Virus record (IMG/VR): IMGVR_UViG_3300028995_000043
Origin: a virus
Lineage: Duplodnaviria; Heunggongvirae; Uroviricota; Caudoviricetes
DNA: 21,569 bases
Strand: one strand, 5' to 3'
Below the pieces are notes generated by a model. The model worked only from the letters and a program-made list of their open reading frames with translations. It was not told where the DNA came from and did no database searches. Of this stretch, positions 4,580 through 21,569 are shown piece after piece. Both the position numbers and the translations under genes were made by a program. The number at the start of each line of letters is the position of its first letter. Within the stretch, counting starts at the first letter, position 1.

Positions 4580-4600
4580 CAGGAGTATCATTTTACACGA

Positions 4601-4620: not shown

Positions 4621-4916
4621 TTATTTTTACCTGTAGTGTAAAAAGATCGTTTCCCTCACAGTCGCTGACTTTCTTAAACAAACTTTAAAAATCAAATAAC
4701 TACTGACTATTCCTACGATTCACCATCATCTTTTCCCTGCATAATGACGCGCTTATTCGCGAGGTCACCTTTTGCTCTTTAATTGCTGAGTGGATTTATT
4801 AGCGGGCATGTTCATTTATAGAGAATCTATTTTTTAAAGTTATTTATTAAAGCTTTTTTCATTCTTCACTGGCGGGTTCTGGCGACACTAAACGCTCACT
4901 TATCAGGAGATACCGT

Positions 4917-5204: not shown

Positions 5205-5206
5205 TG

Positions 5207-5812: not shown

Positions 5813-5824
5813 TCAGAGGGGCCG

Positions 5825-6139: not shown

Positions 6140-6256
6140 ATTCAATTTTTTCTCTAAAGCAGATTAAAAGATTCTCCACCTTCATTACGTCAGAATACAT
6201 TTCAACGATAACGAAGTGAGCGTTAACGAATCAGCGATAATTAAGGAACACCCTAT

Positions 6257-6712: not shown

Positions 6713-6906
6713 AATACATCTACAACGGCCCGGCAAGCGGCGTCACCCTTGCCGACGGACAAGAAATCTTATTGTGGCCGAACAGTGAAATTGATCTGCC
6801 AGAAGACAACGAGTGGGTCATGACCATGATTGCCCGCAATCACCTGACTTCTGTCATCACTCAGGAAGAACAAAATAACGGAGAGGAAATTGTACATGGC
6901 AGCTAA
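6709..6906 (+). CDS. Small hypothetical protein conserved upstream of the sheath gene (putative)
   Basis: 65-aa ORF whose start overlaps the preceding stop and whose 3' end overlaps the sheath start; acidic C-terminus. Confidence 0.45.
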   Translation: MKYIYNGPASGVTLADGQEILLWPNSEIDLPEDNEWVMTMIARNHLTSVITQEEQNNGEEIVHGS

Positions 6907-8317: not shown

Positions 8318-8841
8318 TGGCTGGAAAAATTCAAATTAACCGTATTACCAACGCAAATATTTATCTCGATGGTAATAACCTTTTAGGTCGTGCAACCGAA
8401 ATTAAATTGCCGGATGTCAGTTTAATTATGCAGGAGCATAAAGCACTGGGCATGGTCGGCAAAATCGAACTCCCGGCAGGGTTCGATAAACTGGAAGGGG
8501 AAATTAAATGGAACTCCTTTTATCAGGACGTCATGCGTAAAACGGCAAACCCGTGGCAGGCGGTAGCATTACAGTGCCGCTCCAGTATTGATTGCTATAA
8601 CTCCCAGGGGAAAGCGAATCAATTAGCGTTAGTCACTCATTTGACTGTCATGTTTAAAAAGAATCCACTGGGAACATTTAAACAAAATGAAAACCCGGAA
8701 TTCAGCAGCGCCTTTGGTTGCACTTATATTAAACAAGTGGTCGATGGTGAAACGCTGCTTGAACTTGATTATATGGCGAATATTTTTCGGGTTAACGGCG
8801 TGGATCAATTAAGTACCTATCGCAATAACATCGGTGGCTAA
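8317..8841 (+). CDS. Tail tube protein
   Basis: 174-aa product immediately after the sheath gene (TAATG overlap); size and position typical of P2 FII / Mu M tube proteins. Confidence 0.8.
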   Translation: MAGKIQINRITNANIYLDGNNLLGRATEIKLPDVSLIMQEHKALGMVGKIELPAGFDKLEGEIKWNSFYQDVMRKTANPWQAVALQCRSSIDCYNSQGKANQLALVTHLTVMFKKNPLGTFKQNENPEFSSAFGCTYIKQVVDGETLLELDYMANIFRVNGVDQLSTYRNNIGG

Positions 8842-8891
8842 GTTATTCGGGGCTACGGCCCCGAACTTCGCAAAATAAATAAGGATACAAA

Positions 8892-9209
8892 ATGAAAGAG
8901 CATTATATCTTACAGTTCCCGTTTACTTCAGCGGCGGGAGACGTAATTAACACTCTGCAATTACGTCGCCTGAAAGTAAAAGATATGCGCAACGCGCGCC
9001 GGATCAGCGAAAAGCCAGAAGAGTGGGATGAACCGCTAATGGCGGCAATGACCGGACTGGTGCCAGAAGATTTAGCTGAAATGGATTTGCTGGATTACCA
9101 GGCATTGCAGAAACGATTTCAATCCATGCTTACCGTGGTTACAGAATCCTCCCCTGCTATGGCAGGCAATGGCGTTACTGGCGAGATGGTTTCGCTTTCC
9201 GCCCAGTGA
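8892..9209 (+). CDS. Tail assembly chaperone (P2 gpE-like position)
   Basis: 105-aa acidic protein between tube and tape-measure genes; AAGGA Shine-Dalgarno; an overlapping out-of-frame extension follows (next feature). Confidence 0.65.
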   Translation: MKEHYILQFPFTSAAGDVINTLQLRRLKVKDMRNARRISEKPEEWDEPLMAAMTGLVPEDLAEMDLLDYQALQKRFQSMLTVVTESSPAMAGNGVTGEMVSLSAQ

Positions 9210-9297
9210 GATAGACGCCCTTACCGTCGATGACTTTAGCAACTGGCTGGATGAAGCCAGCGCTCAAATAAAGATCGAATATGACTCGCAGACCTGA
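9076..9297 (+). other. +1-frame ORF overlapping the 3' end of the chaperone gene: candidate programmed-frameshift extension (E+E'-like)
   Basis: The frame offset +1 from the chaperone is open from 9076 to a TGA at 9295-9297 and encodes ...RFPPSEIDALTVDDFSNWLDEASAQIKIEYDSQT. CUU-U (9195-9198) and GUU-U (9189-9192) are possible slip sites. A hairpin (actcgcaga...tctgcgagt, 9284-9307) follows. Confidence 0.35.
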
Positions 9298-9397
9298 TGT
9301 CTGCGAGTCCTTTAAAGCCCGCCAGGTTTATTTCTTCCCAGCCCATTTTTCAGAAAACTAACCAGCGGGCCATCACCAATCTATAAGAGAAACAATT

Positions 9398-11749
9398 TTG
9401 GCCAACGATATTATTACCCAGCTTCAGGCGCGTAATGAGACGTTGACGCAGGCAATAGCCCGTTACGGCTCACTCAACGCCAGAACTTTGTTAGCTCTCT
9501 CTTCTCAGCAAGCGACAGTAATCAAACTAACGCAGCAACTTGCCGATTCTGCTCTCCACCTGGAGGAAAATAGCCGCAGCCGCGCTAATCTGATGGAGAA
9601 AACCCACACATTTGCCGGGCAATTTAGCAAAGTATTCAATGTTGAAGCCCCCGATTGGAAGTTGCCGTATGAGTTCCAGGACAACATGGTCAATATGGCG
9701 ACCAAAGGTGGGATGAATGATACAACCCGCGAGACGCTCAGCCTTAATCTGCGCGACTGGAGCATGGATTTTAACCAGCATCAGACCACCTTACAGAACG
9801 CAGCCCAAACGCTGATCGAAGGCAATTTGTCGTCGATACAGGATCTCAACCGTTATATGCCGGAGATCGCCAAAGCTGCCACCGCCACGCGCGAAAGTAC
9901 TGAAACATGGGCGAATGCCGCGCTCGCAACCCATGATCGACTGAATATTGCGCCAGAAAATTTCCACGCCGCGCAAAACATGATGTACGGCATTAGCAAA
10001 AGCGGTGGGCCTGCCGTTGCCGAGCAAACGCAGTGGATAGACAAATTTGCAGGTAAAACCGGCGCTCAGGGTCTGGAAGGTATGACTGAACTGACTGCCG
10101 CCATGCAGATCGCCATGAAAAACGGGGCCAGCGCCAGTGCGGCGGCTGAGAATTTTGACCACTTTCTGCAAACCACCTTTTCGAAAAAAACCGATAGCTG
10201 GTTCGCCAGCCAGGGCGTCGATTTGCAAGGCTCTCTGCTTGAACATCAGCAAAACGGTATGAGTGTTAGCGAAGCCATGACTCATATCGTGCAAATGCAG
10301 CTTGAGAAGATGAATCCGGCGATCCTCGACACCTTCAAACGCACTATGCAGATTGAAGATTTATCTGCTCGCAGCACTGCGCTGCAATCGATGGTGGCGC
10401 AATTTAATCTGGGCGAAATGTTCGGCGATGCGCAAACGGTGGAATTCCTGGCACCTATGCTGGCGAATATGGAGGAATATCGCCAGTTAAAAGCCTCTGC
10501 CATGCAAACTACCAGCAAGAATCTGATTAACGCTGACTTTTCTGCGCAAATGGCCTCGCCCATTGAACAGACTAAAGCGTTACAACTGGCGTTAAATGAT
10601 TTATGGCTCAGCATTGGCTTGCAGCTTATGCCGGCGATTGGCGAGCTGGCACAAAGCCTTGCGCCGGTTATTCGCCAGTTCAGTGCCTGGCTACGCGAAC
10701 ATCCGGCGCTGGTGCAAAACATTGCGAAAATCGTCGGGGCGATTTGGCTGTTTAACGGTGCGCTTAATGTTTTAAAGCTGGGCGCGAACCTCATCGCCTC
10801 GCCGTTTATTCGTCTGGTCGATATCTTCCTGAAAGTCAGGGCAAGTCTGGCCCTCGGCGGCGCGGCAAGTAAAGTGCTATCGGCGGTTAAGTCATTGGGT
10901 GGCGGCGCAAAATGGCTAACGCAACTGCTTGGTCGTGGCCTGATCGGAGCATTGAAACTGTTTGGTCGAACCGTTCTCTCGCTAGGCCGGGTGTTATTGA
11001 TGAATCCCATTGGTCTGGTCATCACTGCGATTGCGGGCGCGGCTTATCTGATTTATCGCAACTGGGAACCTATCTCCAGGTTCTTTTCGACCATCTGGCA
11101 ACGTATCACCACGGCCTTTGACGGCGGCATTGCAGGAATTTGTCGGTTGATTCTCGACTGGTCACCGCTGGAGTTGTTCTATAGCGCCTTTTCCGATGTG
11201 ATGAATTGGTTTGGTGTTGAGATGCCTGCGAGTTTTAGCGAGTTCGGCAGCAATATACTGGGTAGCCTGGCCGACGGCATAATGAATGCTTTCCCCGCAC
11301 TGAAAGGCATTATTGATCAGGTCAAAAACGCCATGCCAGACTGGCTAAAAGCCACAATGGGTATCAGCACAGAAGCATCGGCTGCGGCTGTTACAGGCAC
11401 GGCTAATACCGCATCAGTCTCCCCCGCGACCGTTGTTCCAGGCGTTGCCGGTGCGATTTTAACGCTGCCGGTGGGCAAACAACTCGCGCCATCCGGCAAA
11501 ACGGCTACGCCGTCATCGGCAAAACCCGCGTCGGCCTCTTTACCTGGTAAATCCGTAACCAAACCGGCGACGCTACCCTCCCGTTCCCCGGGAAAAGTCC
11601 AGGTGAATTTTTCGCCACAAATTACCGTGCAGGGTAACGGACAAAACACCACTAAAGAGATTCAGAACGTGTTGACGATGAGTAAACGCGAACTGGAAAG
11701 AATGATTAACGATGTAATGGCGCAGCAGCAGCGCCGGGGGTATGCCTGA
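9398..11749 (+). CDS. Tail tape measure protein
   Basis: 783 aa, helical N-terminal half, central hydrophobic/Gly-Ala-rich segment (IVGAIWLFNGALNVLKLGANLIASPF...GLVITAIAGAAYLIY) and position after the chaperone are typical of tape measure proteins. Apparent TTG start at 9398 with AAGAGA upstream; start uncertain. Confidence 0.8.
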   Translation: MANDIITQLQARNETLTQAIARYGSLNARTLLALSSQQATVIKLTQQLADSALHLEENSRSRANLMEKTHTFAGQFSKVFNVEAPDWKLPYEFQDNMVNMATKGGMNDTTRETLSLNLRDWSMDFNQHQTTLQNAAQTLIEGNLSSIQDLNRYMPEIAKAATATRESTETWANAALATHDRLNIAPENFHAAQNMMYGISKSGGPAVAEQTQWIDKFAGKTGAQGLEGMTELTAAMQIAMKNGASASAAAENFDHFLQTTFSKKTDSWFASQGVDLQGSLLEHQQNGMSVSEAMTHIVQMQLEKMNPAILDTFKRTMQIEDLSARSTALQSMVAQFNLGEMFGDAQTVEFLAPMLANMEEYRQLKASAMQTTSKNLINADFSAQMASPIEQTKALQLALNDLWLSIGLQLMPAIGELAQSLAPVIRQFSAWLREHPALVQNIAKIVGAIWLFNGALNVLKLGANLIASPFIRLVDIFLKVRASLALGGAASKVLSAVKSLGGGAKWLTQLLGRGLIGALKLFGRTVLSLGRVLLMNPIGLVITAIAGAAYLIYRNWEPISRFFSTIWQRITTAFDGGIAGICRLILDWSPLELFYSAFSDVMNWFGVEMPASFSEFGSNILGSLADGIMNAFPALKGIIDQVKNAMPDWLKATMGISTEASAAAVTGTANTASVSPATVVPGVAGAILTLPVGKQLAPSGKTATPSSAKPASASLPGKSVTKPATLPSRSPGKVQVNFSPQITVQGNGQNTTKEIQNVLTMSKRELERMINDVMAQQQRRGYA

Positions 11750-12702
11750 TGTATGCCGTTTTAGGAGAGATTGAATTTAAAGTTGTCACATTCTGGGACG
11801 GCTTTAAAAGCACAATGGGCGTGGATTACGCCACACATGCCCGTATAGAAGGCAAACCCGGCGTGCAGTTTATTGGCGATAAGCTGGATATGCTGGCGCT
11901 GGAATTTTCCCTGCACAGCCAGTTTTGCCAACCCACAACAGAGCTGAATCGACTGCGTGAAGCCATGCTTGCTCACAAAGCAATGGCGCTGGTGTTTGGC
12001 AACGGAGATTATCGCGGCTGGTTTGTAATTACAGAGTTAACCGCCACTCACCAGCACACCGATCCCTGGGGCAATGTCATTGCCCAAAGCGGAACAATGT
12101 CGCTCCAGGAGTATACCGGCGATCCGAAAAACCCACTGCTGCCCCCGGCAATTACCACCCAGGAGCCTAATATCGAGGAAAAGGCGAGCGATTTTCCGAA
12201 TAAGGTGGAGTCCTGGTTGTATCAGATATTGAACGCCATTGAAGAAGGTATGCGCAAAGCCAAAGAGATGCTCGATGAACTGGCGCAAACCATTGAAGAT
12301 ATTAAAAAAACAGTGGCAAAAGTGAAAGCACTGATTAAAGAGGCCAAAGCGTTAAAAGAAAAGTGTGAAAAGATAATTACGTCGTTGAAAAAGACTATCG
12401 ACGCCATCGAAACCCTGTTTAAACAGCCAATGGATCTGCAAATGCTGGCAGGACTCCCAAAAGCGTTGTCGGCTCAGATTAAAGCTTTACTGGGTAACAT
12501 GCCAGGTATACGGGACTGCGCCAATGACGCCAGTACGCTGGTTGACCATGCTCAGACACTTTTCGACGACATTGCCAGCAACATCGCCGAAGCGACGTTT
12601 GATAAAGCCGCAACGTTGGTTGATCAGGCACGAACAACGGTACAACAAACCACTCCCGCAGTGAGCCAGCTTGCTGCCGCGACCATTACGAGGAGCTGGT
12701 AA
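11749..12702 (+). CDS. Tail protein, P2 gpU / Mu N (DNA-circularisation) family N-terminal domain with C-terminal coiled-coil extension
   Basis: N-terminal ~130 aa (MYAVLGEIEFKV...LREAM...GWFVITEL) align with P2 gpU as recalled; the C-terminal ~190 aa are K/E-rich coiled coil; start overlaps the tape-measure stop (ATGA-type coupling). Confidence 0.7.
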   Translation: MYAVLGEIEFKVVTFWDGFKSTMGVDYATHARIEGKPGVQFIGDKLDMLALEFSLHSQFCQPTTELNRLREAMLAHKAMALVFGNGDYRGWFVITELTATHQHTDPWGNVIAQSGTMSLQEYTGDPKNPLLPPAITTQEPNIEEKASDFPNKVESWLYQILNAIEEGMRKAKEMLDELAQTIEDIKKTVAKVKALIKEAKALKEKCEKIITSLKKTIDAIETLFKQPMDLQMLAGLPKALSAQIKALLGNMPGIRDCANDASTLVDHAQTLFDDIASNIAEATFDKAATLVDQARTTVQQTTPAVSQLAAATITRSW

Positions 12703-12911
12703 TGCGATACCTTGAACATATCACCACCGATGGCGAACGCTGGGATAACCTGGCCTGGCATTACTACGGCGATGCACTGGCTTATGAACGCATTATCGCA
12801 GCCAATCCACATGTCGCCATTTATCCGGTACTGCCTTCCGGTATTCAGCTCATCATTCCGGTCATTTCCGTCAATAAAACCTTATCGGAGATCCCACCAT
12901 GGCTGAGATAA
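12702..12911 (+). CDS. Tail protein X (P2 gpX-like)
   Basis: 69 aa; W..YYG...AANP...LP.G...P pattern matches P2 gpX as recalled. Confidence 0.7.
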   Translation: MRYLEHITTDGERWDNLAWHYYGDALAYERIIAANPHVAIYPVLPSGIQLIIPVISVNKTLSEIPPWLR

Positions 12912-13939
12912 GCGTAACTGGCGGCGTCTTTGCAACACTCACGCCCATTTTTACCCTCTGGTATGGGCATAAAGATATCACTTATGACATCACGCCTTAT
13001 GTCACCAGCATCAGTTACCAGGACAGTATTAAAAACGAGTCGGATACCATCGCGATTACACTGGATGACACCGATGGACGCTGGATAAAAGAGTGGTATC
13101 CCGGCAAAGGCGATACGCTGGCGCTGCATATGGGTTATCAGGGGGAAAAGCTGCTCGATTGTGGTCAGTATATTATTGATAAAATTGATATTTCATCGCC
13201 ACCTTCTACGGTAAATATTGATGGCATCGCCACTTCCGTCAATCAGGCGCTACGCACGCGTAACAGCCAGGGCTTTGAAGAGACGACGCTTTCGGCTATC
13301 GCCAGCCGTATCGCGCAAACGCACGGTCTGAAACTGGTGGGCAAAATCGAGCCGCTCACCATCGACCGGGTAACGCAGTATGGTGAAACCGATGTTGGAT
13401 TTCTCAAACGTCTGGCCAGTGAATATGGTTATGCCGTAAAAGTGACGACAAAAGAGCTGATTTTTTCACATTTACCCACGCTGCGCTGCCTGGCACCGGT
13501 AAAAACGATCGACCGCAAAGACGTTTCGCATTTCACCTTCAAAGATACCATTAACCGTATCTACAAAAACGCCACCGTACAGCATCAAAATAGTAAGAAA
13601 AAAGAACTGGTTATCTACACCCACGACAGCCAGCAAAAACCGTCTGCCCGTGGAGTCGGCACCAGTGCCGACACGCTAAAACTGAACAGTCGGGCGACGG
13701 ACATTGGCGCAGCACAGGCAAAGGCCAACGCTGCACTCGACAGCCACAACGAATATCAGCAAACCGGAACGCTCACAATGATGGGCTGCCCGGAACTGAC
13801 GGCGGGCAATAAAATTGAACTGACCGATTTTGGCGTGCTTTCCGGTCAGTGGCTGATTGATAAATCTACTCACAGTTTTGTGCGCAGCGGCTATACCACT
13901 GAAATCGACGTGTCACGCGGGCCAGCGACCAGCCAGTAA
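12899..13939 (+). CDS. Baseplate hub / late control protein D family (P2 gpD-like, Mu P-like)
   Basis: 346 aa; size, position after gpX and overall similarity to gpD-family proteins; GGAG Shine-Dalgarno; overlaps the gpX 3' end. Confidence 0.8.
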   Translation: MAEISVTGGVFATLTPIFTLWYGHKDITYDITPYVTSISYQDSIKNESDTIAITLDDTDGRWIKEWYPGKGDTLALHMGYQGEKLLDCGQYIIDKIDISSPPSTVNIDGIATSVNQALRTRNSQGFEETTLSAIASRIAQTHGLKLVGKIEPLTIDRVTQYGETDVGFLKRLASEYGYAVKVTTKELIFSHLPTLRCLAPVKTIDRKDVSHFTFKDTINRIYKNATVQHQNSKKKELVIYTHDSQQKPSARGVGTSADTLKLNSRATDIGAAQAKANAALDSHNEYQQTGTLTMMGCPELTAGNKIELTDFGVLSGQWLIDKSTHSFVRSGYTTEIDVSRGPATSQ

Positions 13940-13948
13940 GGAGGAAAT

Positions 13949-14650
13949 ATGAAAGGAGTAACCCGGCAAACGGGGATTATCAGCGATATTGACGAAACCA
14001 GCGTTCGGGTGCGAGTCACGCTTCCAGAGTGTGACAATCTGAAGAGCAACTGGCTTGCGGTACTTCAACGCAATTCCCAGGACAATAAAGACTACTGGCT
14101 ACCGGACATGGGAGAGCAGGTGGAGGTTCTGCTGGATGATAACGGTGAAGATGGCGTGGTGCTGGGCGCAGTATATTCAACGGTAGATACCGCGCCAGTA
14201 GCATCGCGCGACAAACGCTATGTCCAGTTTTCCGATGGCGCAGCGTTTGAATATGACCGCAGCACCCACCAGCTTACGATTAACGGTGGTATCGAAAAAA
14301 TCGTGATTGAGGTTATCGACCGTACCAGCCTGATATCGCCCAACGTTGAGGTTAAAGCCCAACACGTCACCGTGACTTCCGACACTGTTGATGTGAAAGC
14401 CACCGACGTCAGCATTGAAGCCAGTAAGGTCGATGTTAAAGCGATGGCTGTAACGGTAGACGCACCGCTCAGTACCTTTACCGGCAACGTCACGGTGATG
14501 AAAAAACTCACCTGGCTTGGTGGGATGGCAGGAAGTGGAGGCATCGGTAACACCGCCACGATAACCGGCAATGTCAACGTGATCGGCAACGTTCAGGCCA
14601 GCGGCGCATTGCAGGACAGCGGTGGCAACTCCAACCACCATTCACACTGA
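13949..14650 (+). CDS. Baseplate central spike (P2 gpV-like)
   Basis: N-terminal region aligns with P2 gpV (GEQV...DGA..EY...T..LT..G); C-terminal repetitive V/T-rich beta-helix-like segment ending in a His cluster (NHHSH), as at the gpV apex; perfect AAGGAGG Shine-Dalgarno. Confidence 0.85.
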   Translation: MKGVTRQTGIISDIDETSVRVRVTLPECDNLKSNWLAVLQRNSQDNKDYWLPDMGEQVEVLLDDNGEDGVVLGAVYSTVDTAPVASRDKRYVQFSDGAAFEYDRSTHQLTINGGIEKIVIEVIDRTSLISPNVEVKAQHVTVTSDTVDVKATDVSIEASKVDVKAMAVTVDAPLSTFTGNVTVMKKLTWLGGMAGSGGIGNTATITGNVNVIGNVQASGALQDSGGNSNHHSH

Positions 14651-14655
14651 CTTTT

Positions 14656-14686
14656 AACCCGCCTGATAGCGGGTTTTCTCTTTTTA
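14656..14686 (+). terminator. Intrinsic terminator-like hairpin inside the tail operon (between spike and gpW genes)
   Basis: 7-bp GC-rich stem aacccgc/gcgggtt with loop ctgata, followed by ttctcttttt; begins 6 nt after the spike gene stop. Confidence 0.5.
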
Positions 14687-14748
14687 ATCAATCAGTTTTC
14701 TAAATCGCTTTAATATCTCCACAGCCCGTTCAGGGCGAAAATACCCTC

Positions 14749-15108
14749 ATGAACACAAAAACACGCCCCTCAACGCTGCACTGGCAACCGGCCTTGCAGC
14801 GGCCTGAAGAATACGTCTGCGGACTGGATGATATTCACCAGGCAATACACATCATTCTGCGTACACCGCGCGGCAGTGATCCCCACAGACCGCTGTTTGG
14901 CAGCAATTTGTGGCACTACATCGATTATCCCATCGAGCGGGCGATCCCGCATGTGGTACGGGAGTCGGTAGAGGCCATCCGCCAGTGGGAACCGCGCTGC
15001 CGGTTGCTGAAGGTGACACCTGTAATCGACGGTGAACATCTGACGTTACGTGTGCAATGGCGCGCCGCTGACGGCGTAATCAACTCAACGGAGGTGTTAT
15101 GGCGATAG
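14749..15108 (+). CDS. Baseplate wedge protein (P2 gpW / T4 gp25 family)
   Basis: 119 aa; ILRTPRGS...LFGS and WEPR motifs shared with P2 gpW as recalled. Confidence 0.8.
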   Translation: MNTKTRPSTLHWQPALQRPEEYVCGLDDIHQAIHIILRTPRGSDPHRPLFGSNLWHYIDYPIERAIPHVVRESVEAIRQWEPRCRLLKVTPVIDGEHLTLRVQWRAADGVINSTEVLWR

Positions 15109-16214
15109 CCGAACCCAATTTTATTGAACGCGATCCTGCGCAAATTACCAGCGAGATGATTGCGCAATACGAAGATGCCAGCGGCAAAAAGCTCTACCCG
15201 GCACAGGCCGAGCGGTTGCTGATTGACCTTTTTGCCTATCGTGAAAACCTTGTACGCATCGCCATTCAGGAAGCGGCGAAACAGAACCTGGTCGCGTATT
15301 CCCGCGCGCCAATGCTGGATTATTTAGGGGAGCTGGTGGGCGTTCATCGTTTGCCTGCGCAGTCAGCAAAAACGACGTTGCAGTTTTCGGTTGTCAGTGC
15401 GTATACCAGCAATATCCTGATTCCCCAGGGGACGCGGGCCAGTGCCTCTGATAGCGTGATGTTCGCCACCGATGAAGATGTTCTGCTCCCGGCCAGGAGT
15501 TTGCATATCGCCGTTCCTGCCACCAGCCTCGCAGCAGGTGAACAGGGTAACGGCTGGCAGCCTGCACAAATTAGCGCTCTGGTCGACAGGATTGGTCATT
15601 ATGACATCAACGTAATCAACCTGACTGCGTCAACGGGCGGCTGCGGTGAAGAGAGCGATGACGCATTGCGCCAGCGTATCCAACTGGCACCAGAAAGCTT
15701 TAGTAATGCGGGCAGCTATGGTGCCTACCGCTTTCATACGCTTTCCGTAAGCCAGTCGATTATTGACGTTGCAGTACTGGGGCCGGACGAGGGATTGCCA
15801 GAAGGCTGCGTGGAGATCTACCCGCTAACCCTGAACGGACTGCCGGGAATAGAACTGCTCGCGCAAATCGAACAGGAGGTTAGCAAGGAGAAAAAACGTC
15901 CGCTGACCGACAAAGTGAGTGCGAAATGCGCTCTTCGAGTGCCGTATGAGATCCGTGCGCAGCTAACGCTGTTTACCACCGCCGATCAGGAGACAACTCT
16001 GGCTGCGGCGCGTAAAGCGATTAGCCTCTGGACGCAACAGCGGCAGAAACATCTGGGGCAGGACATTGTGCCAAACCAGATAATCAAAGTGTTACAGGTC
16101 GATGGCGTCTATGACGTTGTGCTGAACTTGCCTACAAAACGTATTTTGCAGGCGCATGAATGGGCGGAATGCACTGCAATAGACGTAACGATCGCCGGAG
16201 TTAGCGATGGATAA
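15099..16214 (+). CDS. Baseplate protein J (P2 gpJ-like)
   Basis: 371 aa; position and size typical of baseplate J; overlaps the gpW 3' end and the gpI 5' end (coupled). Confidence 0.8.
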   Translation: MAIAEPNFIERDPAQITSEMIAQYEDASGKKLYPAQAERLLIDLFAYRENLVRIAIQEAAKQNLVAYSRAPMLDYLGELVGVHRLPAQSAKTTLQFSVVSAYTSNILIPQGTRASASDSVMFATDEDVLLPARSLHIAVPATSLAAGEQGNGWQPAQISALVDRIGHYDINVINLTASTGGCGEESDDALRQRIQLAPESFSNAGSYGAYRFHTLSVSQSIIDVAVLGPDEGLPEGCVEIYPLTLNGLPGIELLAQIEQEVSKEKKRPLTDKVSAKCALRVPYEIRAQLTLFTTADQETTLAAARKAISLWTQQRQKHLGQDIVPNQIIKVLQVDGVYDVVLNLPTKRILQAHEWAECTAIDVTIAGVSDG

Positions 16215-16839
16215 ATTGCTGCCACCGCCGCCGCTTGCCAGCGATGAGCGTTTTTCGATTCTGGCAAATATCGCCGCCGAGCGTTTTGCCCAACTCGATC
16301 TTACGGCGTTGATGGTTTATCTGGTCGACCTGGTTGATGCTTCGGCATTACCAGCCCTTGCAGAACAATTTCACGTTCAGGGGCTGGAAGGTTGGTTATT
16401 TACCACCGATGAACGGGAGAAGCGCGAGCTAATTAAGCAAGCCATTGAGCTGCATAAATATAAAGGAACGATTTGGGCGGTACGGCGGGTGCTGGAAATA
16501 CTCTCATTACCAGGAACTATTTCAGAATGGTTTGAATATGGGGGGAAGGCTTATTTTTTTAAGGTTGATATAGAGCTGGTGGATAAAGGCATGGATGAAA
16601 ACCTTTTCAATAATCTGGTAGAACTCATTCATGAATATAAAAACACACGTTCAAAACTGGAAGCATTAATTGTCTGGATCATTAACCAAAGTGCTATTCC
16701 TGTTATTGGTTGTGCACTTTATGGTGGTGAACTGACGTCGGTTTTACCTTTCCAGATACGGGAAGTACAGCAAAACACATCAATCTATTACGGAACAGGG
16801 CAATGGAGCCTTGAAATTACATCTATTTACCCGGAGTAA
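16207..16839 (+). CDS. Tail protein I (P2 gpI-like)
   Basis: 210 aa; HKYKGTIWAVRRVLEIL matches the HxxKGT..A.RRV.E motif of P2 gpI as recalled. Confidence 0.8.
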   Translation: MDKLLPPPPLASDERFSILANIAAERFAQLDLTALMVYLVDLVDASALPALAEQFHVQGLEGWLFTTDEREKRELIKQAIELHKYKGTIWAVRRVLEILSLPGTISEWFEYGGKAYFFKVDIELVDKGMDENLFNNLVELIHEYKNTRSKLEALIVWIINQSAIPVIGCALYGGELTSVLPFQIREVQQNTSIYYGTGQWSLEITSIYPE

Positions 16840-16841
16840 TT

Positions 16842-18611
16842 ATGGATAATGAATTTTATACCCTCCTGACCAATAGAGGGATGGCAAAAATTGCCAGTGC
16901 TCTTGCGGATAAAAAACAACTGCATCTGCAAAAGATGGCCGTTGGAGACGGCGGTGGGCAATATTATGAACCCACGGCGAGTCAAACTAAATTACGCCAT
17001 GAGGTCTGGCGCGGTGATTTAAATACATTAACAGTTGCGCCCAATAATCCTAGCTGGTTAATTGCGGAACTTGTACTGCCCGAAAATATCGGCGGCTGGT
17101 ATATACGTGAAGTCGGCGTTTTTGATACCGATGGTGAACTCATTGCTATCGGTAAATTCCCGGAGTCGTATAAACCGCTATTACCCGGCGGCTGCGGTAA
17201 GCAAGTTTGCATTCGTCTCATTATGGAAGTGTCCAACACGACTGCGGTAACACTCACCGTTGATCCCAGTATTGTGCTGGCAACACGGGATTACGTCGAT
17301 TCGCAACTGGATGAACACGAACATTCGACTAACCACCCTGATGCTACATTGACACAAAAAGGCTTTACGCAGTTGAGTAACGCCACTGACAGTGATGACG
17401 AAACCAAAGCGGCTACGCCAAAAGCGGTGAAAGCGGCACTGATTGAGGCTCGAAATCATCGTCATACCTGGAGTCAGATTACTGATATACCAGATGGCAC
17501 ACTGACGCAAAAAGGGATTGTGAAGCTTAGTAACGCGACCAATAGCAACAGCACGACAGAGGCGGCGACTCCGAGCGCGGTGAAGGCGGCATATGACCTG
17601 GCGAATAGTAAGGCTGCGGGTAGTCATACGCACCCCTGGGGACAGATTACGAGTATTCCTGACGGTACCCTGACACAAAAAGGGATTGTGAAACTTAATA
17701 ACGCGACCAATAGCAACAGTACGACGGAGGCGGCGACACCGAGCGCGGTGAAGGCGGCATATGACCTGGCGAATAGTAAGGCTGCGGGAAACCATACTCA
17801 CCCATGGGGACAGATTACGGGTGTTCCAGACGGCACCCTGTCGCAAAAAGGGATTGTGAAGCTTAATAACGCGACGGATAGCAACAGTACGACGGAGGCG
17901 GCGACACCGAGCGCGGTGAAGGCGGCGTATGATAAAGCCTGTGAGGCATATAGCAGGATTAACAATTCCTCATTCCGATTCTATACATCAAATGGAACAT
18001 TTACCGTGCCAGCTGGAGTGACAGAAATACTTCTGGAAATGTCAGGCGGCGGAGGGGGCGGTGGAGGTGGGGCAGTCGCCGGAAGCTCGACAATGCTGAA
18101 TCCAAAATTTGGACTAGGCGGCGGAGCAGGAAAACCCGGTGAACTGATAATTGCCTCTCTCACAGTTAAACCCGGAGATATGTATTCCTTTACAGTTGGG
18201 TCCGGAGGGGCTGGAGGGGCTGGAGGTACACAGGTGATACCAGAGCGTGGTCCGGGATGGATTCCCGAAGATGCAATGGGGCAAGCAGGTATTCCAGGAG
18301 GAGCATCACATTTTTCTTCACAGAGTGCTTCCGGCGGTGCTGGTGGGGGGGGAGGTAAAATCATAACTATCGACTCCCCGCACGCCAACTCAGTAGGAGA
18401 GGTTCCCAAAACATACTCCAGCAACGGTGAAACTGCAGTAAATACTCCTTATGGAAAAGGGGGCTTGGGAGGAGCGAATAGTGATGGTCAATCCGGCTCT
18501 GGTTATGGGGCGGGAGGTGGGGGAGGGGCTGGTTTAGGATCAACTTGGGTAAACCACGTTGCCCGCAATGGCGGTCGTGGCTTGGGTGGTTATATAAAAA
18601 TTTTATGGTGA
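16842..18611 (+). CDS. Tail fibre protein (P2 gpH-like N-terminus, tandem fibre repeats, glycine-rich C-terminal region)
   Basis: N-terminal ~170 aa align closely with P2 gpH (MAVGDGGG...HEVWR...IAELV.P...GG...RE.G..D..G.LIA...ESYKP...ATRDYVD...EHE.S..HPDA.LT.KGFTQLS.AT.S); four ~56-aa repeats (TQKGIVKL.NATNSNSTTEAATPSAVKAAYDLA); C-terminal ~190 aa extremely Gly-rich. Confidence 0.85.
   Translation: MDNEFYTLLTNRGMAKIASALADKKQLHLQKMAVGDGGGQYYEPTASQTKLRHEVWRGDLNTLTVAPNNPSWLIAELVLPENIGGWYIREVGVFDTDGELIAIGKFPESYKPLLPGGCGKQVCIRLIMEVSNTTAVTLTVDPSIVLATRDYVDSQLDEHEHSTNHPDATLTQKGFTQLSNATDSDDETKAATPKAVKAALIEARNHRHTWSQITDIPDGTLTQKGIVKLSNATNSNSTTEAATPSAVKAAYDLANSKAAGSHTHPWGQITSIPDGTLTQKGIVKLNNATNSNSTTEAATPSAVKAAYDLANSKAAGNHTHPWGQITGVPDGTLSQKGIVKLNNATDSNSTTEAATPSAVKAAYDKACEAYSRINNSSFRFYTSNGTFTVPAGVTEILLEMSGGGGGGGGGAVAGSSTMLNPKFGLGGGAGKPGELIIASLTVKPGDMYSFTVGSGGAGGAGGTQVIPERGPGWIPEDAMGQAGIPGGASHFSSQSASGGAGGGGGKIITIDSPHANSVGEVPKTYSSNGETAVNTPYGKGGLGGANSDGQSGSGYGAGGGGGAGLGSTWVNHVARNGGRGLGGYIKILW
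17337..17935 (+). repeat. Tandem 168-bp coding repeats within the tail fibre gene (4 copies; middle two near-identical)
   Basis: Repeat units start at ~17337 (degenerate), 17490, 17658 and 17826, an exact 168-bp period for the last three; each encodes DGTL(T/S)QKGIVKL(S/N)NAT(N/D)SNSTTEAATPSAVKAAYD..., with HTHPWGQIT in the middle copies. Confidence 0.9.
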
Positions 18612-18615
18612 ACAG

Positions 18616-19221
18616 ATGACACGATATGCGTATTACCATCCGGTAACCTTTGAGGTTATTGACTGGATAGATGCAGCCTCTTTTACTGTGGAATTACCTG
18701 ATTCAGTAATTCCTGTAGATGATGAGCAGTGGCAGTTAAAAGATAAACCATGCTGGATATGTCTTGACCCATTCAAAATTATCACTACGCCACCTCCGGA
18801 TAACTTTTATATCTTAGAGGATGATAAATGGGTGTATAACAAGACGTTATTTACCGTTGCACTGGAGAATACCAAGGCTCAGGTTACACAGGAAATAAAA
18901 AATCGACGTGATGAAATAACAGTAGATTGCATCATCATCAACAACCATCACTTCCACAGTGATACAAATAGCCGTATCCAACAGCTTTCACTCACTAAAA
19001 TGGGAGCGGAGAAAAAAATCCCTCCAGGTTTAATGTGGAAAACTAAAAATAACGGTCTGATCGAGTTAACCAACGAAATCGCCGCCCAGTTTGAATCGGT
19101 CACCATGGATCACGATATGCGCCTGTTCGCCAATGCCCAGCACCATATCGCGGCGGTGGAAGCACTGGACGATATTCAGGCGGTGCTCGACTACGATTAT
19201 TCAACAGGCTGGCAACCATGA
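18616..19221 (+). CDS. Tail fibre assembly protein (Tfa / P2 gpG / Mu U-like)
   Basis: 201-aa ORF immediately after the fibre gene; size and position typical of tail fibre assembly chaperones. Confidence 0.7.
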   Translation: MTRYAYYHPVTFEVIDWIDAASFTVELPDSVIPVDDEQWQLKDKPCWICLDPFKIITTPPPDNFYILEDDKWVYNKTLFTVALENTKAQVTQEIKNRRDEITVDCIIINNHHFHSDTNSRIQQLSLTKMGAEKKIPPGLMWKTKNNGLIELTNEIAAQFESVTMDHDMRLFANAQHHIAAVEALDDIQAVLDYDYSTGWQP

Positions 19222-19673
19222 GTAAAACCACTGTCTGGCTCGCTTGTTATAAGGGCCGAACAGAGCACCGTGGTATTGCCCGACTGGCTGACTGGCTTAC
19301 CCGTAAAATCACACGTGGTCATTATTCCCACTGTGAATTAGCCATTAAGCATGGTGAAAAGAGTTACCTTTGTTACTCCGCATCACTGCGCGATCGCGGT
19401 GTACGCGGAAAAATAATGCCATTGCCAGCGGATAAGTGGGATATGCTGCCGCTCCAGGCCAGCCTTCAGGATGTGGAAACTTTTTTCCGTAAACATGATG
19501 GCAAAAAATATGACTGGCGCGGAGCATTAGGAATTATTACCGGTAATAAAGAACAGCGCGATCGCCTGTTTTGCAGTGAATTTTGTGCTGAATTTCTGCA
19601 ACTGAAGGAAAGCTGGCGCTATTCTCCAAACCACTTGTACGCTTTAGTCAGCAGTTGGCAATACCAGCAATAA
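19218..19673 (+). CDS. Hypothetical protein with permuted-papain-like His/Cys signature (possible NlpC/P60-superfamily thiol enzyme)
   Basis: 151-aa ORF translationally coupled to the Tfa gene (ATGA overlap); contains GHYSHCE early and FCSEFCAEF late, an order reminiscent of LRAT/PPPDE-type permuted papain folds. Family assignment is tentative. Confidence 0.5.
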   Translation: MSKTTVWLACYKGRTEHRGIARLADWLTRKITRGHYSHCELAIKHGEKSYLCYSASLRDRGVRGKIMPLPADKWDMLPLQASLQDVETFFRKHDGKKYDWRGALGIITGNKEQRDRLFCSEFCAEFLQLKESWRYSPNHLYALVSSWQYQQ

Positions 19674-19677
19674 ATCA

Positions 19678-19698
19678 CGCCGGGCTTTATGCCCGGCG
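19678..19698. terminator. Hairpin between convergent tail operon and NTase operon (putative bidirectional terminator)
   Basis: 8-bp GC-rich stem cgccgggc/gcccggcg with loop tttat, overlapping the NTase stop codon; modest U-richness downstream on the minus strand. Confidence 0.4.
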
Positions 19699-20487
19699 CA
19701 TTACCGTTTGATACAGCAAATTATCTAGCTCCCGAACATCTCCATCTCGACTGTCCGGTAAAATCGGCGGAATTTCCCCACGCGCCAGCTCCGCGCGAAT
19801 AAACGCATGTAACAAAGGACGGCGCGGACCATATTCCGCTTCTCCCGCGCGCTGTTTACGTTCCAGCAGTTCGTCTATTTCTGCACGTAACGGTGCATCA
19901 AGCTCGCTTCCCGCCAGTAACTCGGCAAAGCGCATTGGCGGCACACCTTTACCCGCTTCGACCCAGCGCACGGCCAGCAGCGGACGCAGCACGTAAAAGT
20001 ATTTTTTCAGTCGAACTTCATCGCCCTGCAAATAGCCGCGGAAGTTTTTCTGCGCCATCGAATAGTAATGCCAGCGTGCACGCAACGAAGAAAACCACAT
20101 TGGCACCATTGCCTTAAGCGCCGTTATCGTTTCTTCATCTTGTTGATAGACCACCGGAGAATCCAGCCATTCTATTAGCGTCGGATTCGCGCCTTTCAAT
20201 AATCCCAGCGCCTTACGCCACTCCCAACCGGAAACATCTAACTCGTCGTCGATAGGCAGTTCGATAACATCGCGCGGTGACTCTACACGCAGATACCATT
20301 CCAGCGGATGGACATACAAAAACCGTACATCGTAGTCGCTATCGGGCGAGGCAAATCCCCAGCCGCGGCTGCCTGATTCGCAGGCGTACAGCACTTTCAC
20401 GCCATAGCGACATTCTATTTCTTTTAACTGCTGCGATACCCGTTCGCGCATCGCAGCACTGACTCCATTTAATGGCATTTGACTCAT
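19687..20487 (-). CDS. Pol-beta-superfamily nucleotidyltransferase (minimal NTase fold; RlaP-like candidate)
   Basis: 266 aa; classic NTase signature GSRGWGFASPDSDYDVRF (G[GS]x9-13 DxD); AAAGGA Shine-Dalgarno; start overlaps the stop of the upstream SPFH gene by 4 nt (ATGA). Confidence 0.85.
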   Translation of the reverse strand: MSQMPLNGVSAAMRERVSQQLKEIECRYGVKVLYACESGSRGWGFASPDSDYDVRFLYVHPLEWYLRVESPRDVIELPIDDELDVSGWEWRKALGLLKGANPTLIEWLDSPVVYQQDEETITALKAMVPMWFSSLRARWHYYSMAQKNFRGYLQGDEVRLKKYFYVLRPLLAVRWVEAGKGVPPMRFAELLAGSELDAPLRAEIDELLERKQRAGEAEYGPRRPLLHAFIRAELARGEIPPILPDSRDGDVRELDNLLYQTVMRRA

Positions 20488-21569
20488 CCTTTGATATTCA
20501 CTAACCCGTGCAGAACCTGATCCAGACCACCAAATACAGAGATGTTATCGATCCGCTCAGCCACTCTCTCCAGCGTTTCCAGCTCTTTTAAACGCAACGC
20601 TACCGGATTGTTCTCCATGACTTTTGCGGTGTTCAGTAACGAGCGCGTCGCTGCCGTTTCTTCACGTCGGCGAATCACATTGGCCTGCGCAGATTTCTCT
20701 GCCTCAACCAGCTGCGCGAGGATATTTTTCATATCACCAGGCAGGACGATATCTTTCACCCCTAATGAGGCAATCTCCATACCAAATGGCAACATACGCG
20801 ATTTCACCTGTTCGCTGACAACGTCATCAATGACTTGTTTATCTTCCAGCAACTCATCCAGCGTACGCGTACCTACCGCTTCACGCAGTGCAAATTGCAA
20901 TTCCCGATACAAATGATCAATCGGCTTCGTTAACTGACTAAATGCCAATAACACGTCGCTGTAGCGCCAGTTAGCGGCGAGATTAATCCGCAGATTGACC
21001 TTATCTTTCGTTAAGATTTCTTGCCCGCTGACTTCCAGTACCTGCAAGCGGGTGTCAACCACTTCAGCTTCAACCAGATGGTTAATTTTCCAGTACGCAG
21101 TCAGCCCCGGCGGTAACAGCGCCTGCGTTTCACCATCGATTTTCAGTACACCTACGTGCCAGGCCGGAACCTGCACCGTCAGTATCGCATCGCGGCCTTT
21201 AACTACCCCTTTGCGCCGTGGCTGCAATACCGCATTCATCACCTCCGTTTGAACCTGGACTTGCTGCGTACTCATCCGCACCAGCGTCAAATCATCCTCT
21301 ACACGCCAGTACAAACGACGTGTTGATGGCGGCAGGATCTCCAGCAAAATACCGTCCATATACAACGCCCCGGCTTCAGTCTCCGACAAGTCGGCCACCA
21401 CGCAATATCTTTCCACCCACTCTGGCTGAAAGCGGCGCAAATAATCCGCCAGCACGTCGGGAACTTCGCTGCCATCGAGCGTAATCAGCAAAACTTCTGG
21501 CGTATTTAACCAGGGTAAAAGATGCTCGCCTGCATGCAGCACTTTGTAGTAATCGCCATTTCTGGAGAG
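20484..21569 (-). CDS. SPFH/band-7 (stomatin/prohibitin-like) domain protein with N-terminal extension; 5'-partial at window edge
   Basis: C-terminal ~200 aa align with stomatin-type SPFH domains (TKDKVNLRINLAANWRY; TLDELLEDKQVIDDVVSEQV...GMEIASLGVKDIVLPGDMKNILAQLVEAEKSAQANVIRRREETAATRSLLNTAKVMENNPVALRLKELETLERVAERIDNISVFG). The frame stays open to the window end, so the true start is probably beyond 21569. Confidence 0.85.
   Translation of the reverse strand, partial: LSRNGDYYKVLHAGEHLLPWLNTPEVLLITLDGSEVPDVLADYLRRFQPEWVERYCVVADLSETEAGALYMDGILLEILPPSTRRLYWRVEDDLTLVRMSTQQVQVQTEVMNAVLQPRRKGVVKGRDAILTVQVPAWHVGVLKIDGETQALLPPGLTAYWKINHLVEAEVVDTRLQVLEVSGQEILTKDKVNLRINLAANWRYSDVLLAFSQLTKPIDHLYRELQFALREAVGTRTLDELLEDKQVIDDVVSEQVKSRMLPFGMEIASLGVKDIVLPGDMKNILAQLVEAEKSAQANVIRRREETAATRSLLNTAKVMENNPVALRLKELETLERVAERIDNISVFGGLDQVLHGLVNIKG

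What the first reader, a model, noticed from the sequence alone, without database searches (positions are those of the whole stretch)
19687..21569. SPFH/band-7 protein overlapping a Pol-beta nucleotidyltransferase: candidate RNA-repair/conflict or defence cargo module
The two genes overlap by 4 nt (ATGA) and are convergent to the tail operon, so they form a separate operon at the distal edge of the tail cluster, a position where prophage-like elements often carry defence cargo. The NTase has the minimal GS...DxD signature. The partner is an SPFH domain with a long N-terminal extension and no obvious N-terminal membrane anchor in the visible part. From memory, comparative-genomic work on RNA repair systems predicted SPFH/band-7 scaffold modules together with a novel nucleotidyltransferase, often alongside RNA ligases and a tRNA-like RNA. 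I know of no experimentally characterised system with this pairing.
Basis: partly seen in the sequence, partly recalled or inferred. Interest (0 to 1): 0.7.

Follow-up and report, generated by a model that had tools for sequence, protein, structure and literature searches.

The report
Ligase-less Band-7/RlaP RNA-repair operon remnant
The two genes are real, but they are not phage cargo: they are a cut-down chromosomal copy of a known, computationally predicted but untested RNA-repair operon (scaffold protein, RNA-end-extending enzyme and a tRNA-like leader RNA) that happens to lie next to a phage-tail gene cluster.

Summary
Both genes exist. The nucleotidyltransferase is an RlaP (PF10127, E 1.7e-95). 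Its partner is a Band-7/SPFH protein of 375 aa with no membrane helix. The 4-nt ATGA overlap is doubtful. NCBI's PGAP annotation, the ribosome-binding site and the orthologues all favour a start 9 nt downstream, leaving a 5-nt gap.

The pair is not cargo of the tail cluster. It occurs in 1632 of 5426 complete E. coli genomes, always between lysC and yjbD. Only about 196 of these carry the tail genes.

In other Enterobacterales and Betaproteobacteria the same slipin heads an operon next to a divergent rtcR. That operon has a sigma-54 promoter, a tRNA-like leader RNA, then slipin, RtcB, sometimes RtcA, and RlaP. This is the Band-7/"b7a-tRNA"/RtcB/RlaP RNA-repair system predicted by Burroughs and Aravind (2016).

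E. coli has lost RtcB and RtcR from this locus. It keeps the promoter, an activator-site-like block, a leader of about 290 nt with strong covariation, and both genes (dN/dS about 0.06). The window strain has rtcR-rtcBA elsewhere.

Most likely this is an RtcR-controlled accessory RNA-repair module. It is a ligase-less variant of a known kind and of moderate interest.

The parts
19687..20478 (-). rlaP: RlaP-family (PF10127) Pol-beta nucleotidyltransferase, 263 aa from the start used by PGAP and the orthologues. The longest ORF starts at 20487 and gives 266 aa.
   Evidence: Pfam E 1.7e-95. GS36-37, D48, D50 and D81 are invariant. dN/dS is 0.061 against the majority E. coli allele.
20484..21569 (-). 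Slipin (Band-7/SPFH) gene, cut by the window end. The full gene is 375 aa and starts at window-equivalent position 21611 (L001 17012). It has an N-terminal beta-rich domain, an SPFH domain and C-terminal helices, with no membrane helix.
   Evidence: dN/dS is 0.056.
19676..19700 (-). Hairpin with 10 pairs (8 G-C) followed by a partly T-rich tail, overlapping the rlaP stop codon. Probable terminator of the slipin-rlaP operon.
   Evidence: sequence.
19672..19687 (.). Junction between the tail-gene element (4033..19673) and the lysC-yjbD islet. Similarity to E. coli genomes without the tail genes begins at window position 19672.
   Evidence: matches start at query base 1074 of L001:14000-18000, which is L001 15073 and window 19672.

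Best explanation
The pair is the protein-coding part of a reduced rtc-type RNA-repair operon that belongs to the chromosome, not to the neighbouring tail genes. The ancestral unit is intact in Phytobacter, Enterobacter, Providencia, Xenorhabdus, Burkholderia and many Betaproteobacteria. It reads: rtcR (divergent), activator sites, a sigma-54 promoter, a structured tRNA-like leader RNA, a cytoplasmic Band-7 protein, RtcB ligase, sometimes RtcA cyclase, and RlaP.

In E. coli the ligase and the regulator have been lost from this locus. The promoter, the activator-site-like block, a leader of about 290 nt and the two genes remain under strong purifying selection.

Proposed mechanism (inferred): RNA damage that activates the resident RtcR, encoded with rtcBA at the malT locus, also turns on this promoter. 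The Band-7 protein oligomerises in the cytoplasm and, together with the leader RNA, acts as a scaffold. RlaP adds one or two nucleotides to 3'-OH ends of cleaved and trimmed RNAs, mainly tRNAs. RtcB supplied in trans then seals them.

Shown here: the identities of the genes, the synteny, the promoter motif, RNA covariation, selection on the genes, and the presence of rtcR-rtcBA in the same genome. Shown elsewhere for Pseudomonas orthologues: the RlaP activity. Inferred: activation by RtcR in trans, RNA binding by the Band-7 protein, and cooperation with RtcB.
For: Gene identities: Pfam RlaP at 1.7e-95 and Band_7 at 1.4e-24.

Location: the pair is at lysC-yjbD in 1632 of 5426 E. coli genomes, and about 1430 of these lack the tail genes. 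K-12 has lysC and yjbD directly adjacent. The orthologous Klebsiella locus has lysC, RlaP, Band_7, a divergent RtcR, SBF and yjbD.

Operon architecture: counts over the 80 species-level loci are RtcR+RtcB+RlaP 21, the same plus RtcA 3, RtcR+RlaP 12, RtcR+RtcB 11, RtcR+RtcB+RtcA 5. Pfam confirms RtcB (9e-131), RTC and RtcR.

Promoter: TGGCACGTTTCTCGCA lies about 300 nt upstream of the slipin ATG (L001 17327..17312). The motif is conserved in 38 of 41 gammaproteobacterial loci (L010-L050). A TTATC..GATAA..CGATA..GATAA block is shared with the K-12 rtcBA promoter.

Leader RNA: it carries a perfect T arm, CGGGUUCGAUUCCCG. Domain 1 has 25 pairs, 94.5% paired against 38-54% in slid controls, with 162 double-change cells against 12-33. 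Domain 2 has 21 pairs, 17 with compensatory changes.

Selection and trans factors: dN/dS is 0.06 with dS 0.17-0.29. rtcR is in 5425 of 5426 E. coli genomes, and rtcA-rtcB/rtcR is present in the window strain itself. RtcR is 62% identical and RtcB 73% identical to the versions in the slipin operons.

Literature: RlaP adds 1-2 NMP to RNA 3'-OH (10.64898/2025.12.29.696909). Band-7 plus 'b7a-tRNA' next to RtcB was predicted earlier (10.1101/312249).
Against: No expression or binding data exist for this locus. RtcR activation in trans rests only on motif conservation.

E. coli and the other Enterobacterales checked (L001, L002, L008, L014, L027, L033, L037, L043) lack the unit that looks like an authentic tRNA. 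ARAGORN finds none there, and Rfam tRNA does not hit the E. coli leader. Only the T-arm-bearing element remains.

RlaP leaves a 3'-OH, but RtcB needs a 3'-phosphate. The preprint itself raises this biochemical mismatch.

RtcB has been lost from this operon in at least 13 loci of 7 genera, so the pair may have a role that does not need ligation. Deleting the P. aeruginosa orthologue of the Band-7 gene gave no phenotype in standard assays (PMC13086221). The single-sequence fold of the leader is no more stable than shuffles (z -0.5).
Confidence: 0.75

Rival explanations
1. The pair is anti-phage defence or other cargo carried by the neighbouring prophage-like tail element.
For: The pair lies immediately next to the last tail-cluster gene and is convergent with it. 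One PHROG family (phrog_14344) matches the RlaP over its full length (5.4e-121), so prophage predictions have swept this gene in.
Against: About 1430 E. coli genomes have the pair without the tail genes, and the homology break is at the gene boundary. The same chromosomal site is occupied in other genera that have no phage genes there. The slipin has no match in 50,697 phage records. Only 10 'plasmid' records match, all large replicons of 0.3-4.8 Mb. There are no PADLOC hits. The tail element has no head, integrase or transposase genes.
Confidence: 0.04
2. The pair is a functionless remnant of the ancestral operon, decaying after the loss of RtcB and RtcR.
For: RtcB, RtcR and the neighbouring SBF gene are missing in E. 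coli. 70% of E. coli genomes have lost everything. The authentic tRNA-like unit is missing.
Against: Both ORFs are intact, with dN/dS about 0.06 across alleles that differ at dS 0.17-0.29. The promoter, the activator-site-like block and the leader are conserved. A compensatory C-G to U-A change in the T arm separates the two E. coli alleles. More than 1600 genomes match over at least 80% of the region. The same ligase-less layout persists in Citrobacter, Klebsiella, Mangrovibacter, Lonsdalea, Brenneria and Hafnia.
Confidence: 0.08
3. The module acts without ligation. RlaP, held and targeted by the Band-7/leader-RNA particle, tags or extends the 3' ends of specific RNAs (tRNA halves, tRNA 3' ends or the leader RNA itself). 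The purpose would be to mark, protect or inactivate them, so this would be a regulatory or conflict role rather than repair.
For: RtcB has been lost repeatedly while slipin and RlaP are kept (13 loci). RlaP products end in 3'-OH, which RtcB cannot join. In many species the T-arm element is followed by a 7-nt strand and ACC(A/U), which can pair either upstream or downstream. The 24 most distant slipins keep tRNA-like genes but have no RtcB, RtcA, RtcR or RlaP gene in operon position next to them; four have RtcB just upstream.
Against: The commonest architecture includes RtcB between the two genes (24 loci) and RtcR (52 loci). E. coli strains keep rtcBA elsewhere. In vitro, RlaP treatment before ligation restores aminoacylation of trimmed tRNA.
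Confidence: 0.12

Closest known systems
Band-7 / b7a-tRNA / RtcB (plus RlaP) RNA-repair systems predicted by Burroughs and Aravind, Nucleic Acids Res 2016 (as cited in 10.1101/312249 and 10.64898/2025.12.29.696909; the paper itself could not be read here)
   Same: The Band-7 protein and RlaP are in one operon. A T-arm-bearing structured RNA lies directly upstream. Orthologous loci at the same chromosomal site contain RtcB and RtcR.
   Different: The E. coli locus has no RtcB and no RtcR. The unit that resembles an authentic tRNA is absent. What remains is a leader of about 290 nt in two domains.
E. coli rtcR-rtcBA operon (sigma-54, CARF-domain activator RtcR)
   Same: Same promoter class (TGGCACG-N4-T.GCA) and a shared upstream GATA-rich block. 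The RtcR and RtcB of the slipin operons are 62% and 73% identical to the K-12 proteins.
   Different: rtcBA has a short leader of about 40 nt and no Band-7, RlaP or tRNA-like RNA. The window locus has no ligase or cyclase.
Salmonella rsr-yrlBA-rtcBA (Ro60 with Y RNAs that carry a tRNA-like domain)
   Same: An RtcR-controlled operon in which a putative scaffold protein and a tRNA-mimicking RNA precede RtcB (PMC7790460, 10.1101/312249).
   Different: The scaffold is a Ro60/TROVE ring, not SPFH. The RNAs are unrelated in sequence, and Rfam finds no Y-RNA match here.
Pseudomonas aeruginosa rtc locus: rtcR, PaFlo8 (SPFH), rtcB, rlaP, rtcA
   Same: The same gene families in one locus. PaRlaP and PfRlaP add 1-2 NMP to RNA 3'-OH.
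   Different: The ligase and cyclase are present there. Orthology of PaFlo8 to this slipin was not tested here.
Membrane slipins and other SPFH complexes (stomatin, QmcA-YbbJ, HflK/C, prohibitin)
   Different: There is no membrane hairpin or helix and no NfeD or protease partner gene. Instead there is an extra N-terminal beta domain of about 130 aa and an RNA-repair gene context.

Membership tests
RlaP (PF10127) nucleotidyltransferases | Full-length match to the family profile above the curated cut-off | tested here: met
   319.9 bits against a cut-off of 23, covering profile positions 1-248 of 249.
RlaP (PF10127) nucleotidyltransferases | Pol-beta catalytic motifs: GS plus three acidic residues | tested here: met
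   G36 S37, D48, D50 and D81 are invariant in 7 orthologues. The preprint describes three strictly conserved Asp residues.
RlaP (PF10127) nucleotidyltransferases | Gene next to an RNA ligase (the origin of the name) | tested here: not met
   There is no ligase within 15 kb in the window strain. RtcB lies directly upstream of rlaP, or separated from it only by rtcA, in 24 orthologous loci and elsewhere in the same genome.
RlaP (PF10127) nucleotidyltransferases | Adds 1-2 NMP to RNA 3'-OH | not testable with these tools
   Shown only for the P. fluorescens and P. aeruginosa enzymes.
SPFH/Band-7 (slipin) | Band_7 domain by profile and by fold | tested here: met
SPFH/Band-7 (slipin) | N-terminal membrane anchor and an NfeD-type operon partner, typical of prokaryotic slipins | tested here: not met
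   The highest 19-residue hydropathy mean is 1.13. The neighbours are rlaP and yjbD.
Band-7/b7a-tRNA/RtcB RNA-repair system | Band-7 gene in an operon with RtcB | tested here: not met
   RtcB is absent from the E. coli locus. It is present directly after the slipin in 42 of 80 related loci.
Band-7/b7a-tRNA/RtcB RNA-repair system | tRNA-like non-coding RNA next to the Band-7 gene | tested here: inconclusive
   A T arm identical to the tRNA/tmRNA consensus and a covarying structure lie upstream. ARAGORN and the Rfam tRNA model do not call a tRNA in E. coli. Authentic-looking tRNA-like genes are called only in the more distant loci.
Band-7/b7a-tRNA/RtcB RNA-repair system | RtcR and sigma-54 control | tested here: inconclusive
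   The -24/-12 motif and an activator-site-like block are present. rtcR is not adjacent but is present in the genome. Activity was not tested.
Known anti-phage defence systems / prophage cargo | Match to defence-system models, or carriage on phages or other mobile elements | tested here: not met
   PADLOC gives 0 hits. The phage collection gives 0 hits for the slipin. The chromosomal site is fixed across genera.

The most novel reading that the evidence does not exclude
In E. coli the RtcR regulon is split over two loci. The lysC-yjbD islet would supply a cytoplasmic SPFH cage or ring loaded with a two-domain structured RNA of about 290 nt that is not in Rfam. This would be a Ro/Y-RNA-like or vault-like particle. 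It would capture cleaved tRNAs and present their trimmed 3' ends to RlaP before RtcB, made from the other locus, seals them. That would be the first soluble, RNA-associated SPFH assembly in bacteria, and it would explain why RlaP and Band-7 are kept when the ligase gene is lost.
Probability: 0.3. Interest if true: 0.7.

Novelty: new variant of a known kind. Interest (0 to 1): 0.45.

Why it matters
The Band-7/b7a-tRNA/RlaP branch of bacterial RNA repair has been predicted since 2016, but no one has shown what the scaffold protein or the RNA does.

About 30% of E. coli strains carry a minimal version at a defined site: promoter, leader RNA, Band-7 and RlaP. They also carry a separate rtcR-rtcBA locus. 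That offers a tractable genetic system in which to ask three questions:
- Is the operon RtcR-dependent?
- Does a soluble SPFH protein bind RNA?
- Does RlaP help cells survive ribotoxins that trim tRNA ends?

There is also a practical point. Prophage and defence-island predictors should not count these genes as cargo of the adjacent tail cluster.

Tried and rejected
Searches that found nothing:
- PADLOC gave nothing for RlaP, the slipin or the 151-aa neighbour.
- NCBIfam gave nothing specific. The only hits were weak sub-threshold HflK/C matches for the slipin.
- Rfam at gathering thresholds found only the lysine riboswitch and naRNA4. At E up to 10 the leader hit only the tmRNA T arm.
- ARAGORN found no tRNA in the E. 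coli, Klebsiella, Phytobacter, Lonsdalea, Providencia, Proteus or Xenorhabdus loci.
- A sequence search of the PDB with RlaP found nothing.
- Phage and plasmid collections were searched to test mobility. There were no phage hits, and the only plasmid hits were mega-replicons.

Structural leads that did not hold:
- The single-sequence folding energy of the leader is not unusual (z -0.5). The case for structure rests on covariation.
- An outer helix (P0) seen in single-sequence folds could not be scored, because the alignment puts E. coli in a different register from the other sequences.

Other rejected ideas:
- The zeta-toxin family gene that flanks the pair in most E. coli strains was considered as a third component, for example a kinase. 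I rejected this because it is convergent, is confined to Escherichia, and is replaced by the tail cluster in the window strain.

Not obtained:
- The Burroughs and Aravind paper (PMC5062991) is not held. What it says is taken from papers that cite it.
Full report
**Observation**

The window is 100% identical to E. coli strain 2021CK-01784, record NZ_CP104371.1. Two minus-strand ORFs lie at its right end: 19687..20487 (266 aa), and 20484 to beyond 21569. In the full record the second gene is 375 aa (L001 15885..17012).

Pfam assigns the first ORF to RlaP (PF10127), at E 1.7e-95 over the whole profile. It assigns the second to Band_7 (PF01145), at E 1.4e-24 on residues 133-304 of the part inside the window.

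G36 S37, D48, D50 and D81 are invariant in seven orthologues of 47-86% identity.

The 4-nt overlap depends on using the first ATG. AGGA sits 8 nt before the second ATG (20478). PGAP starts the gene there, and the orthologues align from that residue with 4-5 nt intergenic gaps. The genes are therefore tightly coupled but probably do not overlap.

A hairpin of 10 pairs with a partly T-rich tail lies at 19700..19676 on the minus strand. It overlaps the rlaP stop codon.

**The pair does not belong to the tail cluster**

A 1970-bp query covering the pair matches 1632 of 5426 complete E. coli genomes, always on the chromosome. A 4-kb query that also spans the last tail genes and yjbD is covered at 80% or more in only 196 genomes. 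In the remaining genomes that carry the pair, the match starts exactly at window position 19672, which is the end of the last tail-cluster ORF.

In those genomes the order is lysC, a zeta-toxin family gene, rlaP, slipin, yjbD. In K-12, lysC and yjbD are directly adjacent.

In the window strain the zeta-toxin gene is replaced by a 15.6-kb block. The block holds a Mor activator, a holin, an SLT lysozyme, tail sheath, tube, tape measure, baseplate and fibre genes, a DUF4376 gene and a 151-aa ORF. It has no head, integrase or transposase genes.

Three further results argue against mobile or defence cargo:
- The slipin has no relative in 50,697 phage records.
- It matches only ten 'plasmid' records, all replicons of 0.3-4.8 Mb.
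- Neither protein matches a PADLOC model.

One PHROG family (phrog_14344) does match RlaP end to end. This most likely reflects prophage predictions that ran over the boundary.

**What the pair is part of**

In the Klebsiella oxytoca group the same chromosomal site reads lysC, rlaP, Band_7, then a divergent gene with RtcR and sigma-54-activator domains, then SBF, yjbD and rluF.

A scan of one genome per species returned 80 loci encoding full-length relatives of the slipin. They are 45-97% identical and include the N-terminal extension. They come from Enterobacterales, Orbales, Neisseriales, Burkholderiales and other Proteobacteria.

tblastn with reference proteins gave the following architectures:

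| Genes found next to the slipin | Loci |
|---|---|
| RtcR + RtcB + RlaP | 21 |
| RtcR + RtcB + RtcA + RlaP | 3 |
| RtcR + RlaP, no RtcB | 12 |
| RtcR + RtcB | 11 |
| RtcR + RtcB + RtcA | 5 |
| RlaP only (Escherichia) | 1 |
| RtcB only or RtcA only | 3 |
| None of these (the most distant slipins) | 24 |

Pfam confirmed RtcB (9e-131), RtcA and RtcR.

The full unit is therefore rtcR, divergent from an operon of slipin, rtcB, sometimes rtcA, and rlaP. Because it occupies lysC-yjbD in several enterobacterial genera, it is an old chromosomal locus that has been eroded to different degrees. RtcB has been lost from it in Escherichia, Citrobacter, Klebsiella, Mangrovibacter, Lonsdalea, Brenneria and Hafnia. 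Only Escherichia has also lost RtcR and SBF.

**Promoter and leader, just beyond the window end**

About 300 nt upstream of the slipin ATG lies TGGCACGTTTCTCGCA (L001 17327..17312, equivalent to window positions 21911-21926). This is a sigma-54 -24/-12 element. The same motif is present in 38 of the 41 gammaproteobacterial loci L010-L050.

About 85-125 nt further upstream is a block of the form TTATC..GATAA..CGATA..GATAA. It aligns between the E. coli islet, Citrobacter, Klebsiella, Enterobacter and Phytobacter, and also the K-12 rtcBA promoter.

Between promoter and gene lies a leader of about 290 nt with two parts.

*Domain 1.* This contains a perfect tRNA/tmRNA T arm, CGGGUUCGAUUCCCG (L001 17200..17186; Rfam hits only that arm). 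The GGTTCGANTC motif occurs upstream of the slipin in about 70 of 80 loci. On 36 sequences the consensus has a short hairpin, a long irregular hairpin, an enclosing helix and the T arm:
- 25 pairs in total, 20 with changes on both sides.
- 94.5% of cells are paired, against 38-54% when partners are slid by 1-3 columns.
- 162 cells have changes on both sides, against 12-33 in the slid controls.

The two E. coli alleles differ by a compensatory C-G to U-A change in the T arm.

*Domain 2.* This is a long stem nearer the ribosome-binding site. It has 21 pairs, 17 with compensatory changes.

In Betaproteobacteria two T arms lie about 72 nt apart. ARAGORN calls the second unit a tRNA, often with an odd anticodon: stop, undetermined or 4-nt. 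In E. coli and the other Enterobacterales checked (L001, L002, L008, L014, L027, L033, L037, L043), no tRNA is called. E. coli therefore keeps the T-arm-bearing element and domain 2, but not the unit that looks like an authentic tRNA.

**Is the reduced E. coli version alive?**

The window allele and the majority E. coli allele differ at dS 0.29 for rlaP and 0.17 for the slipin. Their dN/dS values are 0.061 and 0.056, and both ORFs are intact. The leader is 94% identical between the alleles, with the promoter and activator-site-like block preserved.

rtcR is present in 5425 of 5426 E. coli genomes. The window strain itself carries rtcA-rtcB divergent from rtcR next to malT.

K-12 RtcR is 62% identical to the RtcR encoded beside the Klebsiella slipin. 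K-12 RtcB is 73% identical to the RtcB in the Phytobacter slipin operon.

This fits a module that is still in use, with its regulator and ligase supplied from the other locus. That last step is inference.

**The proteins**

The slipin has no hydrophobic segment long enough for a membrane helix; its highest 19-residue mean hydropathy is 1.13. An AlphaFold2 model built from 37 sequences has mean pLDDT 75.6. It shows a confident beta-rich N-terminal domain, an SPFH domain and low-confidence C-terminal helices.

The C-terminal 90 residues, including an invariant RRREET..TRSLLNTAKVME segment, are the most conserved part of the family. The family is large: 540 clusters at 50% identity score E 1e-30 or better.

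For RlaP, a 2025 preprint shows that two Pseudomonas enzymes from rtcB-rlaP-rtcA operons add one or two NMPs to RNA 3'-OH ends. They prefer damaged RNA, and treatment with RlaP before ligation partly restores aminoacylation of a tRNA that has lost one anticodon-loop nucleotide. The authors note that this 3'-OH product does not fit RtcB's need for a 3'-phosphate.

In P. aeruginosa PA14 an SPFH gene (PaFlo8) lies in the rtc locus. Its deletion had no phenotype in growth, virulence, motility, biofilm or oxidative-stress assays.

**Comparison with what is known**

A paper on YrlA states that Burroughs and Aravind (2016) predicted RtcB next to a Band-7 protein and a 'band 7-associated tRNA' that strongly resembles a real tRNA, and that this RNA had not been validated. 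The RlaP name comes from the same study. I could not read that study.

The window locus shares the Band-7 protein, RlaP, the promoter class and a T-arm-bearing structured RNA with this system. It fails two of the system's defining features in cis, namely RtcB and an authentic-looking tRNA unit. I therefore file it as a ligase-less variant rather than a plain member.

It works most like the rtc family of RtcR-controlled RNA-repair operons. The nearest functional analogy is Salmonella rsr-yrlBA-rtcBA, where a Ro60 ring and tRNA-like Y RNAs precede RtcB.

**Verdict**

The system is known from prediction and partly from in-vitro enzymology. Three things are new here:
- The demonstration that about 30% of E. 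coli strains carry a reduced, selected version with the regulator and ligase at another locus.
- The finding that the leader is a covarying two-domain RNA absent from Rfam.
- The finding that the slipin is soluble.

Interest is moderate, at 0.45.

Noticed in passing
window 4033-19673: A tail-only gene block between lysC and rlaP. It holds a Mor-type late activator (phrog_532), a holin, an SLT lysozyme, sheath, tube, tape measure, baseplate and tail fibre genes and a DUF4376 protein. It has no head, integrase, transposase or repressor genes. It looks like a tailocin (R-type bacteriocin) or a Mu-like prophage remnant. About 196 of 5426 E. coli genomes have it at this site, and no complete phage record is close to it.
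   Followed up: partly
L002 5054-5980 (most E. coli strains, in place of the tail block): A 308-aa zeta-toxin family P-loop protein (PF06414, 1.2e-40) sits between lysC and rlaP and is convergent with rlaP. It is seen only in Escherichia, and no antitoxin gene is annotated beside it.
   Followed up: partly
L061 3855-7637; L084 6199-7600; L076 7178-7633; L065 7313-7693: In some distant Beta- and Gammaproteobacteria the slipin homologue is preceded by arrays of 3 to 13 tRNA genes. These end in a tRNA-like gene with an abnormal anticodon loop. In L061 and L065 an RtcB gene lies upstream of the slipin, within or beside the array region.
   Followed up: no
L001 17010-17158 (window-equivalent 21609-21757, outside the window): The second half of the slipin leader is itself a conserved structured RNA. 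It is a long stem with a variable apical insertion, with 21 predicted pairs of which 17 have compensatory changes. No Rfam family matches it.
   Followed up: partly
L043-L050, L053-L055, L068 (slipin genes of 515-590 aa): The Xenorhabdus, Providencia, Gilliamella, Orbus, Neisseria, Snodgrassella and Undibacterium versions carry about 150 extra residues. These look like a duplication of the N-terminal beta domain.
   Followed up: partly
L027-L029, L032, L036-L044, L048, L049 (gene next to rtcR): A 305-aa metallo-beta-lactamase protein with a weak tRNase Z N-terminal match (PF13691, 1.5e-05) lies beside rtcR in 16 loci of Lonsdalea, Brenneria, Erwinia, Providencia, Proteus and Xenorhabdus. Whether this is the housekeeping RNase BN/Z or a dedicated partner is not known.
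   Followed up: no
window 19600-21569: The window allele of the islet is rare: 99% identity or more in only 6 genomes. It differs from the majority E. coli allele by 6-7% in DNA (dS up to 0.29) and is 97% identical at protein level to the slipin of Escherichia sp. MOD1-EC7003. This suggests it was imported by recombination, perhaps together with the tail block.
   Followed up: partly
window 19218-19673: The last ORF of the tail block (151 aa) has no Pfam, NCBIfam or PADLOC match. It matches the first half of phrog_1128 (4e-58), a family labelled enoyl-CoA hydratase-like 'moron'. Its function is unknown.
   Followed up: partly
window 19687-20478: phrog_14344 ('nucleotidyltransferase') matches this chromosomal RlaP over its full length (5.4e-121). 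This is a sign that prophage-derived protein families include genes swept in from beyond prophage ends.
   Followed up: no
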